Below, piece after piece: positions 34,977-39,284 of a stretch of 64,000 nt of DNA; within the stretch, counting starts at the first letter, position 1; each line of letters opens with the position of its first letter. The position numbers and the translations under genes are program-made. The DNA is taken from the NCBI RefSeq assembly GCF_051903065.1, contig NZ_CP178438.1. The stretch is one strand, 5' to 3'. The notes below the pieces were generated by a model. It had not been told where the DNA came from. It saw only the letters and a program-made list of their open reading frames with translations, and searched no databases. Source of the DNA: Escherichia coli (GTDB taxonomy: Bacteria > Pseudomonadota > Gammaproteobacteria > Enterobacterales > Enterobacteriaceae).

Positions 34977-36338
34977 TTAGCGACCAGGAAATCCCGGCGG
35001 CATCATCCCCTTCATGCTTCTCATCATCTTCGCCATTCCGCCCTTCTTCATTTTCTTCATCATGCGCTGCATGTCGTCGAACTGTTTCAGAAGACGGTTA
35101 ACGTCCTGCACCTGCATACCGCAACCGGCAGCAATACGGCGTTTACGCGAACCTTTGATGATTTCTGGCTTAGCGCGCTCTTTCATCGTCATCGAGTTGA
35201 TGATGGCTTCCATACGCACCAGCACTTTATCGTCCATCTGTGACTTGACGTTATCCGGGATCTGCCCCATGCCCGGCAGCTTGCCCATCAGGCTAGCCAT
35301 GCCGCCCATATTTTTCATCTGGCGCAGCTGCTCAAGAAAGTCGTTGAGATCGAAGCCGTCACCTTTTTTCAGCTTGCTGGCTAATTTCTCTGCCTGCGCG
35401 CGGTCAACTTTGCTTTCGATATCTTCGATCAGCGACAGTACGTCGCCCATGCCGAGAATACGCGACGCGATGCGGTCCGGATGGAACGGCTCCAGCGCCT
35501 CAGTTTTCTCGCCAACACCGAGGAACTTGATCGGTTTGCCAGTGATGTGACGAATAGAGAGCGCCGCACCGCCGCGGGCATCGCCGTCCACTTTGGTCAA
35601 CACTACGCCGGTAAGCGGTAACGCTTCATTGAATGCTTTTGCCGTATTGGCCGCATCCTGACCGGTCATGGCGTCAACCACAAACAGGGTTTCAACCGGG
35701 TTAATCGACGCATGGACTTGTTTGATCTCGTCCATCATCGCTTCGTCAACGTGCAGACGACCAGCGGTATCCACCAGCAGCACGTCGTAGAATTTCAGTT
35801 TGGCTTCTTTCAGCGCCGCGTTAACGATATCTACCGGCTTCTGACCAACATCAGAAGGGAAGAAATCAACGCCCACCTGCTCTGCCAGCGTCTCAAGCTG
35901 TTTGATTGCCGCCGGGCGATAAACGTCGGCAGAAACCACCAGCACTTTCTTCTTGTGCTTCTCGCGCAGGAACTTACCGAGTTTACCAACGCTGGTTGTT
36001 TTACCGGCACCTTGCAGGCCCGCCATCAGCACGACCGCTGGCGGTTGCGCAGCCAGGTTCAGGGTCTGGTTCTCTTCGCCCATCGCCGCAACCAGTTCGT
36101 TACGGACGATTTTGACGAACTCCTGCCCCGGCGTCAGGCTCTTATTAACTTCATGACCAACCGCTTTCTCTTTTACGCGATTGATAAACTCACGCACTAC
36201 CGGCAGAGCGACGTCCGCCTCCAGCAGCGCCATGCGCACTTCGCGCAGCGTATCTTTTACGTTGTCTTCAGTGAGGCGTCCACGGCCACTGATATTGCGC
36301 AGCGTGCGCGACAAACGATCGGTTAAATTATCAAACAT
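34977..36338 (-). CDS. ffh: signal recognition particle protein Ffh
   Basis: 453 aa; SRP GTPase motifs (GLQGAGKTT, DTAGR), Met-rich M domain. Confidence 0.97.
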   Translation of the reverse strand: MFDNLTDRLSRTLRNISGRGRLTEDNVKDTLREVRMALLEADVALPVVREFINRVKEKAVGHEVNKSLTPGQEFVKIVRNELVAAMGEENQTLNLAAQPPAVVLMAGLQGAGKTTSVGKLGKFLREKHKKKVLVVSADVYRPAAIKQLETLAEQVGVDFFPSDVGQKPVDIVNAALKEAKLKFYDVLLVDTAGRLHVDEAMMDEIKQVHASINPVETLFVVDAMTGQDAANTAKAFNEALPLTGVVLTKVDGDARGGAALSIRHITGKPIKFLGVGEKTEALEPFHPDRIASRILGMGDVLSLIEDIESKVDRAQAEKLASKLKKGDGFDLNDFLEQLRQMKNMGGMASLMGKLPGMGQIPDNVKSQMDDKVLVRMEAIINSMTMKERAKPEIIKGSRKRRIAAGCGMQVQDVNRLLKQFDDMQRMMKKMKKGGMAKMMRSMKGMMPPGFPGR

Positions 36339-36504
36339 TGTCTCTCGCCTGGGGTGGAAACGGTTGGCCGCAATCGCGACACATCATCAGTATTTTGCCG
36401 CAGTATAACATGAAGGCGTCTTTGTTGTTATGCAACGGTTGGAGCAGCGTTCACCTGACGCTATACTGCTTCTCTTTCTTATTGCTCAAACTGTCGACAT
36501 TACT

Positions 36505-37296
36505 ATGCCCGTTTTTGCTCTGCTCGCGCTTGTCGCCTACTCCGTCAGTCTTGCGCTGATTGTTCCCGGTCTGCTGCAAAAAAACGGCGGCTGGCGGCGC
36601 ATGGCTATTATTTCTGCGGTCATTGCGCTGGTCTGCCACGCAATCGCTCTGGAAGCCCGCATCCTGCCCGACGGTGATAGCGGACAAAACCTCAGCCTGC
36701 TGAACGTTGGTTCATTGGTCAGTTTGATGATCTGTACGGTAATGACCATTGTGGCTTCTCGCAATCGTGGCTGGTTGCTGCTACCCATTGTCTATGCCTT
36801 TGCGCTTATCAACCTGGCGCTGGCGACCTTCATGCCCAATGAATACATCACCCATCTGGAAGCAACGCCTGGGATGCTGGTGCACATTGGCTTATCGCTC
36901 TTTTCCTATGCCACGCTAATTATCGCCGCCCTGTACGCGCTGCAACTGGCGTGGATTGATTACCAACTGAAGAACAAGAAGCTGGCGTTTAACCAGGAAA
37001 TGCCGCCATTGATGAGTATCGAGCGTAAAATGTTCCACATCACGCAGATTGGCGTGGTGCTGCTAACGCTCACGCTTTGCACTGGCCTGTTCTACATGCA
37101 CAACTTATTTAGCATGGAAAATATCGACAAGGCTGTGCTCTCTATCGTGGCGTGGTTTGTCTATATTGTGCTGCTGTGGGGACATTATCATGAAGGATGG
37201 CGTGGACGTCGCGTCGTCTGGTTTAACGTTGCGGGTGCAGTCATTCTGACACTGGCCTACTTCGGCAGCCGAATTGTCCAGCAGTTAATCAGCTAA
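36505..37296 (+). CDS. ypjD: inner-membrane protein (cytochrome c assembly-like)
   Basis: 263 aa from ATG at 36505; polytopic membrane protein. Confidence 0.8.
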   Translation: MPVFALLALVAYSVSLALIVPGLLQKNGGWRRMAIISAVIALVCHAIALEARILPDGDSGQNLSLLNVGSLVSLMICTVMTIVASRNRGWLLLPIVYAFALINLALATFMPNEYITHLEATPGMLVHIGLSLFSYATLIIAALYALQLAWIDYQLKNKKLAFNQEMPPLMSIERKMFHITQIGVVLLTLTLCTGLFYMHNLFSMENIDKAVLSIVAWFVYIVLLWGHYHEGWRGRRVVWFNVAGAVILTLAYFGSRIVQQLIS

Positions 37297-37316
37297 ACCC
37301 AGAAAAGGAGTTTCCC

Positions 37317-38603
37317 CTGGAACACATTTCTACTACTACGTTGATCATTATTCTGATCATCATGGTGGTCATTTCAGCCTATTTTTCCGGGTCCGAAACC
37401 GGAATGATGACCCTCAACCGCTATCGTCTGCGACATATGGCGAAACAGGGTAATCGCTCGGCCAAACGCGTCGAAAAATTGCTGCGTAAGCCAGACCGCC
37501 TGATAAGCCTGGTGTTAATCGGCAATAACCTGGTCAATATTCTTGCCTCCGCGCTCGGCACTATTGTTGGGATGCGTTTGTACGGCGATGCGGGCGTGGC
37601 AATTGCGACTGGTGTGCTGACTTTTGTCGTACTGGTTTTTGCTGAGGTATTGCCGAAAACCATTGCCGCGCTGTACCCGGAAAAAGTCGCTTATCCAAGT
37701 AGTTTTCTGCTGTCTCCGCTGCAAATTTTGATGATGCCGCTGGTCTGGTTGCTGAATGCTATCACCCGTATGCTGATGCGCATGATGGGTATCAAAACCG
37801 ATATCGTGGTTAGCGGCTCTTTGAGCAAAGAAGAGTTGCGCACTATCGTGCACGAATCGCGCTCACAAATTTCCCGTCGCAATCAGGATATGCTGCTGTC
37901 GGTGCTCGATCTGGAAAAAATGACCGTTGATGACATCATGGTGCCGCGCAGTGAAATTATCGGTATTGATATCAACGATGACTGGAAATCTATTCTGCGC
38001 CAACTCTCCCACTCACCTCACGGGCGCATCGTGCTCTACCGTGATTCGCTGGACGACGCCATCAGTATGCTGCGAGTACGTGAAGCCTGGCGGTTGATGT
38101 CGGAGAAAAAAGAGTTCACCAAAGAAACCATGCTGCGCGCCGCGGACGAGATCTATTTTGTGCCGGAAGGTACGCCGCTCAGCACGCAGTTGGTAAAGTT
38201 TCAGCGCAACAAAAAGAAAGTCGGCCTGGTCGTCAACGAGTATGGAGACATTCAGGGGCTGGTGACGGTTGAAGATATTCTGGAAGAGATTGTCGGCGAT
38301 TTCACTACGTCGATGTCGCCAACACTTGCCGAAGAGGTCACGCCGCAAAACGACGGTTCGGTGATTATCGATGGCACCGCCAACGTGCGGGAAATCAACA
38401 AAGCCTTTAACTGGCATCTACCGGAAGATGATGCCCGCACGGTTAATGGCGTCATTCTTGAGGCACTGGAAGAGATCCCTGTCGCAGGCACCCGCGTGCG
38501 TATTGGCGAGTACGATATCGATATTCTCGACGTACAGGACAATATGATTAAGCAGGTAAAAGTTTTTCCTGTGAAACCGCTGCGCGAGAGTGTGGCGGAG
38601 TAA
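37317..38603 (+). CDS. yfjD: CNNM/CorC-family membrane protein (DUF21, CBS pair, CorC-HlyC)
   Basis: Frame open from 37317 (CTG, AAAAGGAG 7 nt upstream); later candidate starts TTG 37341 and ATG 37362; start uncertain. Confidence 0.8.
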   Translation: MEHISTTTLIIILIIMVVISAYFSGSETGMMTLNRYRLRHMAKQGNRSAKRVEKLLRKPDRLISLVLIGNNLVNILASALGTIVGMRLYGDAGVAIATGVLTFVVLVFAEVLPKTIAALYPEKVAYPSSFLLSPLQILMMPLVWLLNAITRMLMRMMGIKTDIVVSGSLSKEELRTIVHESRSQISRRNQDMLLSVLDLEKMTVDDIMVPRSEIIGIDINDDWKSILRQLSHSPHGRIVLYRDSLDDAISMLRVREAWRLMSEKKEFTKETMLRAADEIYFVPEGTPLSTQLVKFQRNKKKVGLVVNEYGDIQGLVTVEDILEEIVGDFTTSMSPTLAEEVTPQNDGSVIIDGTANVREINKAFNWHLPEDDARTVNGVILEALEEIPVAGTRVRIGEYDIDILDVQDNMIKQVKVFPVKPLRESVAE

Positions 38604-38657
38604 CGAAAACGGCCCTGCATTCGCATGCAAGGCCGTGAATTATTACGAAAACAGAAA

Positions 38658-39284
<627 letters not shown>

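What the first reader, a model, noticed from the sequence alone, without database searches (positions are those of the whole stretch)
37317..37365. Ambiguous non-canonical start for yfjD
The frame is open upstream of the first ATG (37362); a CTG at 37317 has the best Shine-Dalgarno spacing (AAAAGGAG), and a TTG at 37341 is also possible. The true N-terminus affects the first TM helix.
Basis: seen in the sequence. Interest (0 to 1): 0.15.

Follow-up and report, generated by a model that had tools for sequence, protein, structure and literature searches.

The report
Known CTG start codon of yfjD

Summary
Every sequence detail in the finding is confirmed. CTG is at 37317, TTG at 37341 (codon 9) and the first ATG at 37362 (codon 16). 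AAAAGGAG lies at 37303-37310, 6 nt before the CTG, and the frame is open back to TAA 37224. The start is not ambiguous. EcoGene 3.0 (PMC3531124) reports mutagenesis and protein fusions confirming the yfjD CTG start, with no effect from mutating the TTG at codon 9. K-12 MG1655 and three other RefSeq E. coli genomes annotate the 428-aa CDS from this CTG. The aligned codon is always NTG (35 CTG, 29 TTG, 15 GTG, no ATG). Codons 2-8 are conserved as protein and vary almost only at third positions. Upstream, all codon positions vary and in-frame stops are common. Codon 9 is an ordinary Leu codon, usually CTG/CTC/CTA/CTT. Only the CTG has a Shine-Dalgarno sequence (-8.2 kcal/mol, against about +2.4 and +0.6 for the other two). 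Verdict: already known, low interest. The one mildly new point is that no sampled species uses ATG here, which suggests a deliberately weak start.

The parts
37303..37310 (+). Shine-Dalgarno sequence AAAAGGAG (core AGGAG at 37306-37310), 6 nt upstream of the CTG
   Evidence: One search gives the sequence. One search gives an anti-SD duplex energy of -8.2 kcal/mol, reached by 1.07% of random 20-mers in the window. An AAGGA(G/A)-type SD is present at the same place in all 79 other species (mean -7.0, worst -5.3 kcal/mol).
37317..37319 (+). CTG initiation codon of yfjD (decoded as fMet)
   Evidence: It is the annotated start in K-12 MG1655 NC_000913.3 (b4461, 2748774..2750060) and in three other RefSeq E. 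coli genomes. EcoGene 3.0 mutagenesis confirms it (PMC3531124). The aligned codon is NTG in all 79 other species: 35 CTG, 29 TTG, 15 GTG.
37317..38603 (+). yfjD coding sequence, 428 aa plus stop; a CNNM/CorB (HlyC/CorC) family inner-membrane transporter
   Evidence: Searches give the ORF. Pfam finds CNNM at residues 11-184, CBS at 278-326 and CorC_HlyC at 344-418. It is 99.6% nt-identical to K-12 yfjD with one amino-acid difference, A133S.
37320..37340 (+). Codons 2-8 (EHISTTT), translated and under purifying selection
   Evidence: positions 1 and 2 of these codons have entropy 0-0.29 bits and position 3 has 0.10-1.63 bits. The amino acids are identical in 75-79 of 79 distinct sequences.
37341..37343 (+). 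TTG, codon 9: an internal Leu codon and the formerly annotated start, not a start
   Evidence: Across species this codon is CTG 50, CTC 11, TTG 8, CTA 6, CTT 4. There is no SD upstream (+2.4 kcal/mol). Mutating it had no effect on expression (PMC3531124).
37362..37364 (+). ATG, codon 16: an invariant internal Met inside TM helix 1, not the start
   Evidence: There is no SD upstream (+0.6 kcal/mol). It lies 5 residues inside the Pfam CNNM domain. Protein-level conservation extends 15 codons upstream of it.
36505..37296 (+). Upstream gene ypjD (RefSeq start ATG 36505, stop TAA 37294-37296), 20 nt before the yfjD CTG; probable operon partner and translational-coupling partner
   Evidence: Searches give the annotation. 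The gap from ypjD stop to yfjD start is 10-30 nt in 74 of 80 sequences, with a mode of 18 nt. No terminator-like or promoter-like site lies between the two genes on the + strand.

Best explanation
Translation of yfjD starts at the CTG at 37317. Shown here: this is the only start-capable codon with a Shine-Dalgarno sequence (AGGAG, 6-nt spacer). It is the first start-capable codon after the upstream in-frame stop. Protein-level purifying selection begins at the very next codon. Taken from a paper: mutating this codon, but not the TTG at codon 9, affects expression. Inferred from established initiation biology: the 30S subunit docks on the SD and places CUG in the P site. Initiator fMet-tRNA reads CUG with a first-position mismatch, so the protein begins with fMet rather than Leu. 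IF3 proofreading keeps initiation inefficient; reporter assays give CUG 1-2% of AUG (bioRxiv 10.1101/063800). The ypjD stop codon 20 nt upstream probably supplies terminating ribosomes that help initiation by translational coupling. The product is the 428-aa CorB-type transporter, with a 9-residue N-terminal tail (MEHISTTTL) ahead of the region that aligns to TM helix 1 of solved homologues. The weak start most likely keeps this membrane transporter at a low level.
For: Sequence anatomy is. SD energies are -8.2 kcal/mol for the CTG against +2.4 for TTG-9 and +0.6 for ATG-16. RefSeq/PGAP and the curated K-12 record start the CDS at the CTG. EcoGene 3.0, section 'CTG start codon verification' (PMC3531124), reports that the CTG was confirmed by mutagenesis and protein fusions, and that mutating the TTG at codon 9 had no effect. 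In 79 species the aligned codon is always NTG. Third-position-only variation starts at codon 2, while upstream all three positions vary. Sixty of 80 sequences have an in-frame stop within 8 codons upstream, and 77 of 80 have no ATG/GTG/TTG between that stop and codon 1. YfjD residue 10 aligns to residue 9-11 of solved CorB/CorC chains. Of 120 public protein cluster representatives, 110 begin MEHISTT. The ypjD stop to yfjD start spacing is 10-30 nt in 74 of 80 sequences.
Against: The mutagenesis is cited in the EcoGene paper as unpublished results, with no data shown. I found no ribosome-profiling or N-terminal peptide evidence for YfjD. The TRAINSPOTTER N-terminomics supplements and the TetRP supplements do not list it, and the Ribo-RET supplements are not held. 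Translational coupling and the purpose of the weak start are inferences. Six species with 118-159 nt inserts between ypjD and yfjD still use CTG, so tight coupling is not essential.
Confidence: 0.93

Rival explanations
1. Translation starts at the TTG at 37341 (codon 9), giving a 420-aa protein. This was the older annotation and is the first canonical start in the ORF.
For: It is the first ATG/GTG/TTG in the open frame. It would still retain the whole Pfam CNNM domain, residues 11-184.
Against: There is no SD upstream (+2.4 kcal/mol). In other species the codon is CTG 50, CTC 11, CTA 6, CTT 4 and TTG only 8, so in at least 21 of 79 it cannot initiate at all. The seven codons upstream of it are conserved as protein with synonymous changes. 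Mutating it had no effect on expression (PMC3531124). None of the 120 public cluster representatives starts there.
Confidence: 0.02
2. Translation starts at the first ATG, 37362 (codon 16), giving a 413-aa protein. Some automatic gene callers predict this.
For: The ATG is invariant in all 79 distinct sequences. Nine of 120 public cluster representatives begin at this Met; the six printed come from the Logan or ENA collections.
Against: There is no SD upstream (+0.6 kcal/mol). It lies 5 residues inside the CNNM domain profile and 6 residues inside the stretch that aligns to solved CorB structures. That would leave only 8 residues before the conserved FSGSE motif, which I judge too short for a membrane-spanning helix. 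Fifteen upstream codons are under protein-level constraint. The EcoGene fusions identify the CTG as the start.
Confidence: 0.02
3. Dual initiation: the CTG makes the main 428-aa form, and a minor N-terminally shortened proteoform arises from TTG-9 or ATG-16, perhaps under stress such as after mRNA cleavage inside codons 3-4.
For: Closely spaced alternative starts are reported as common in E. coli (PMC13245402). The MazF-regulon study lists yfjD with a cleaved ACA 17 nt before its start (PMC5001579). That distance fits the ACA at 37324 relative to TTG 37341.
Against: Neither downstream codon has an SD. Codon 9 is not conserved as a start codon. A form shortened to Met16 would lack part of TM1. 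There is no direct evidence of a second proteoform.
Confidence: 0.03

Closest known systems
yfjD (b4461) CTG start as curated in EcoGene 3.0 and GenBank U00096.3 / RefSeq NC_000913.3
   Same: It is the same gene and the same codon. The start context is identical to K-12, and the CDS is 99.6% nt-identical with one amino-acid difference, A133S. EcoGene describes it as the second confirmed CTG start in the E. coli K-12 genome.
   Different: Nothing of substance differs; the window comes from another E. coli strain.
[quoted passage not shown]
   Same: It also uses a near-cognate CUG codon to start a chromosomal E. coli gene, and its start was initially misannotated at a downstream canonical codon.
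   Different: It is an unrelated protein, a DnaA-inactivation factor rather than a membrane transporter. I did not examine the hda locus here.
infC (IF3) AUU start codon
   Same: It is a conserved weak, non-canonical start codon whose use is limited by IF3 discrimination. This rests on established knowledge, and AUU sits in the same 1-2%-of-AUG class as CUG in bioRxiv 10.1101/063800.
   Different: For infC the weak codon forms a demonstrated autoregulatory loop. No regulatory role has been shown for the yfjD CTG.

Membership tests
Bacterial genes initiated at a near-cognate CUG start codon | A CTG codon in frame with the ORF, preceded by a Shine-Dalgarno sequence at 5-9 nt | tested here: met
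   AGGAG at 37306-37310, a 6-nt spacer and CTG at 37317; anti-SD duplex -8.2 kcal/mol, in the top 1.07% of the window.
Bacterial genes initiated at a near-cognate CUG start codon | No canonical in-frame start further upstream that could explain the conserved N-terminus | tested here: met
   There is no ATG/GTG/TTG between the in-frame TAA at 37224 and 37341. In 77 of 80 sequences there is none between the nearest upstream in-frame stop and codon 1, and 60 of 80 have that stop within 8 codons.
Bacterial genes initiated at a near-cognate CUG start codon | Protein-coding constraint (third-position variation, conserved amino acids) begins immediately after the proposed start and not before it | tested here: met
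   Per-position entropies across 79 distinct sequences: codons 2-30 vary almost only at position 3, and codons -8 to -1 vary at all three positions.
Bacterial genes initiated at a near-cognate CUG start codon | The aligned codon in orthologues is a start-capable codon | tested here: met
   CTG 35, TTG 29, GTG 15 in 79 species, with positions 2 and 3 (TG) invariant.
Bacterial genes initiated at a near-cognate CUG start codon | Expression is lost when the CTG is mutated, or an N-terminal fMet peptide or initiation footprint is seen at the CTG | not testable with these tools
   Mutagenesis and fusion confirmation is reported in PMC3531124 as unpublished results. No YfjD entry appears in the N-terminomics or TetRP supplements that are held.
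CNNM/CorB (HlyC/CorC) family transporters | N-terminal CNNM (DUF21) transmembrane domain | tested here: met
   PF01595, residues 11-184, E = 5.5e-54. Residues 10-326 align to archaeal CorB 7m1t/7m1u.
CNNM/CorB (HlyC/CorC) family transporters | Cytosolic CBS-pair domain | tested here: met
   PF00571, residues 278-326. Residues 201-330 match the CBS-domain crystal structure 3hf7 at E = 2e-74.
CNNM/CorB (HlyC/CorC) family transporters | C-terminal CorC_HlyC transporter-associated domain | tested here: met
   PF03471, residues 344-418, E = 2.3e-19.
CNNM/CorB (HlyC/CorC) family transporters | Mg2+/Co2+ transport activity | not testable with these tools
   Not addressed here. Some sources name orthologues 'Mg2+/Co2+ transporter CorB'.

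The most novel reading that the evidence does not exclude
The weak, non-AUG start of yfjD is held by selection and is not an accident. In all 79 sampled Enterobacteriaceae species the start is CTG, TTG or GTG. The first base has changed at least 9 independent times and never to A, even though GTG-to-ATG is a single transition. This could mean that the level of the CorB-type transporter must be kept low, or that it is made sensitive to IF3 activity or to translation of the upstream ypjD.
Probability: 0.3. Interest if true: 0.3.

Novelty: already known. Interest (0 to 1): 0.08.

Why it matters
It matters mainly for annotation quality. CTG starts are extremely rare in E. coli, and gene callers that exclude CTG shorten YfjD by 15 residues, cutting into its first membrane helix. 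Nine of 120 public protein clusters carry that truncated form. The comparative analysis here gives independent, data-backed support for a start that the literature confirms only through results cited as unpublished. It answers no open biological question.

Tried and rejected
1. I looked for direct initiation-site evidence. The bioRxiv version of the Ribo-RET paper has no supplements held. The TRAINSPOTTER N-terminomics supplements and the TetRP supplements contain no yfjD, b4461 or P37908 entry. None of this counts for or against the CTG start.

2. The homologous-protein search returned only relatives at 87% identity or above among the 120 listed. It could not show what more distant orthologues such as Yersinia, Serratia or Vibrio use as a start. 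It was useful only for the census of N-termini.

3. I checked for RNA structure around the start. An 80-nt fold gives -12.2 kcal/mol and z = -0.64, no different from shuffled sequence, so there is no evidence for a regulatory hairpin.

4. The promoter and terminator scan of 36300-38750 found nothing on the + strand between ypjD and yfjD. This is weak support for co-transcription and nothing more.

5. I considered that the codon at 37317 might be an internal Leu/Val codon of a longer ORF. I rejected this because in-frame stops lie within 8 codons upstream in 60 of 80 sequences.

Full report
**What is there.** The window carries the E. coli ffh(-), ypjD(+), yfjD(+), grpE(-), nadK(+) neighbourhood. 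CTG is at 37317, TTG at 37341 (in-frame codon 9) and the first in-frame ATG at 37362 (codon 16). AAAAGGAG is at 37303-37310, leaving 6 nt between the AGGAG core and the CTG. The frame is open upstream to TAA at 37224. No ATG, GTG or TTG lies between that stop and 37341, which is why a mechanical ORF list starts the gene at the TTG with 420 aa. From the CTG to the stop at 38603 is 1287 nt, or 428 aa.

**Is it more than chance?** The anti-Shine-Dalgarno duplex energy upstream of the CTG is -8.2 kcal/mol. Random 20-mers from the window average -2.1 (sd 2.3), and 1.07% reach -8.2. The sequences upstream of TTG 37341 and ATG 37362 give +2.4 and +0.6 kcal/mol, so neither has an SD.

**What is already known.** A literature search for yfjD and CTG led to EcoGene 3.0 (PMC3531124). 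Its section 'CTG start codon verification' says the CTG start of yfjD was predicted from sequence conservation and ribosome-binding-site inspection. [quoted passage not shown] Mutating the previously annotated TTG at codon 9 had no effect on expression. The paper calls it the second confirmed CTG start in the E. coli K-12 genome, after hda. These experiments are cited as unpublished results.

The annotation follows that paper.
- The curated K-12 MG1655 record NC_000913.3 annotates yfjD (b4461) at 2748774..2750060, and that position is the CTG.
- PGAP starts the 1287-nt CDS at the same CTG in the three other RefSeq E. coli genomes I opened, at 100%, 95.4% and 93.9% identity to the query.
- The region is present in 5425 of 5426 complete E. 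coli genomes.

I fetched yfjD loci from 80 species-representative genomes of Enterobacteriaceae; 79 were usable at the 5' end. Codon by codon:
- **Codon 1.** The codon aligned to 37317 is NTG in every species: CTG 35, TTG 29, GTG 15, ATG 0. Its second and third bases are invariant.
- **Codons 2-8 (EHISTTT).** These are essentially invariant as amino acids. Entropy is 0-0.29 bits at positions 1 and 2, against 0.10-1.63 bits at position 3. This is the signature of translated sequence.
- **Codons -8 to -1.** All three positions vary, with entropies of roughly 0.55-1.9 bits. The exception is the conserved AAGGA(G/A) Shine-Dalgarno block, which overlaps codons -4 and -3.
- **Upstream stops.** Sixty of 80 sequences have an in-frame stop within 8 codons upstream. 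In 77 of 80 there is no ATG/GTG/TTG between that stop and codon 1.
- **Codon 9.** The TTG in E. coli is CTG 50, CTC 11, TTG 8, CTA 6, CTT 4 across species, so it is an ordinary Leu codon that often cannot initiate.
- **Codon 16.** The ATG is invariant but has no SD in any species (mean +0.5 kcal/mol).

That condition is not met, because the pattern starts at 37320.

**Protein-level consistency.** Pfam finds CNNM (DUF21) at residues 11-184, CBS at 278-326 and CorC_HlyC at 344-418. YfjD is therefore a CorB-type member of the CNNM/HlyC-CorC transporter family. In solved homologues, YfjD residue 10 aligns with residue 11 of archaeal CorB (7m1t, 7m1u) and with residue 10 or 9 of 7cff and 7cfg. The CTG-initiated form thus has the same short N-terminal tail as the crystallised proteins. 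A Met16 start would delete the first 5-6 aligned residues of TM helix 1. A TTG-9 start would leave only one residue ahead of the aligned region. Among 120 public protein cluster representatives, 110 begin MEHISTT, 9 begin at Met16 and none begins at codon 9. The six Met16 forms that were printed come from the Logan or ENA collections.

**How it most likely works.** The following are shown here:
- the SD and CTG geometry;
- the absence of any alternative start;
- protein-level constraint beginning at codon 2;
- the conserved closeness to the ypjD stop, at 20 nt in this window and 10-30 nt in 74 of 80 sequences, with a mode of 18 nt;
- no significant RNA structure around the start (z = -0.64).

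The mutational confirmation comes from PMC3531124. Reporter assays put CUG at about 1-2% of AUG (bioRxiv 10.1101/063800). The rest is inferred from established initiation biology. Initiator tRNA reads CUG with a first-position mismatch, so the N-terminus is fMet. IF3 proofreading keeps initiation inefficient. Ribosomes terminating on ypjD may assist by coupling, but six species with 118-159 nt inserts still use CTG, so tight coupling is not obligatory.

**A small new observation.** On a neighbour-joining tree of the CDS, the first base of the start codon has changed at least 9 times among C, T and G and never to A. Under a naive equal-rates model, the chance of no A in 9 changes is about (2/3)^9 = 0.03. 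This suggests, but does not demonstrate, selection for a weak start. The sample is a single bacterial family.

**What led nowhere.** I found no ribosome-profiling or N-terminomics record for YfjD in the papers and supplements that are held. Direct physical evidence for the N-terminus therefore still rests on the unpublished fusions cited by EcoGene.

**Verdict.** The preference for the CTG is correct, and the claimed ambiguity is already resolved. This is a known, correctly annotated feature, so it scores as already known with low interest.

Noticed in passing
window 37317 and the aligned codon in L004-L083: No sampled Enterobacteriaceae species uses ATG as the yfjD start (35 CTG, 29 TTG, 15 GTG). 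The first base has changed at least 9 independent times and never to A. This may reflect selection for weak initiation.
   Followed up: partly
window 37322-37326: The MazF-regulon paper (PMC5001579, Table 1) lists yfjD with a cleaved ACA 17 nt before its start. The only ACA at that distance is 37324, measured from the obsolete TTG start at 37341, and no ACA lies in the 37 nt upstream of the CTG. That supposed 5'-UTR cleavage site therefore probably lies inside codons 3-4 of the real CDS.
   Followed up: partly
window 36430-36505: The longest ypjD ORF starts at ATG 36430 (288 aa). RefSeq, including curated K-12, starts ypjD at ATG 36505 (263 aa). This is another gene in the window where the longest ORF is not the annotated one.
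   Followed up: no
L002 about 1698-1726 (E. coli ChlosBP-23-1), equivalent to window 37294-37302: A 9-bp tandem duplication (TAACCCCAG TAACCCCAG) sits between the ypjD stop and the yfjD SD. It lengthens the spacer without touching the SD or the CTG.
   Followed up: no
L009, L020, L025, L026, L029, L031, upstream of position 1501: Raoultella species, one Citrobacter amalonaticus strain and 'Enterobacter sp. 10-1' carry 118-159 nt of extra sequence between ypjD and yfjD and still keep a CTG start and SD. I did not examine what the insert is.
   Followed up: no
proteins P0002, P0006, P0007, P0010, P0013, P0018 and others: Nine of 120 public protein cluster representatives start at Met16 (MVVI...); the six printed come from the Logan or ENA collections. 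This looks like systematic N-terminal truncation by gene callers that do not allow CTG. P0002 is 640 aa, which suggests a stop-loss, fusion or assembly artefact.
   Followed up: no
window 37713-37715 (codon 133 of yfjD): The window's YfjD differs from K-12 MG1655 at a single residue, A133S. The CDS is 99.6% nt-identical.
   Followed up: no
window 38609-38636, - strand: A 12-bp-stem, GC-rich hairpin followed by a T-rich tail lies between the convergent yfjD and grpE genes. It looks like the grpE terminator and may act in both directions.
   Followed up: no
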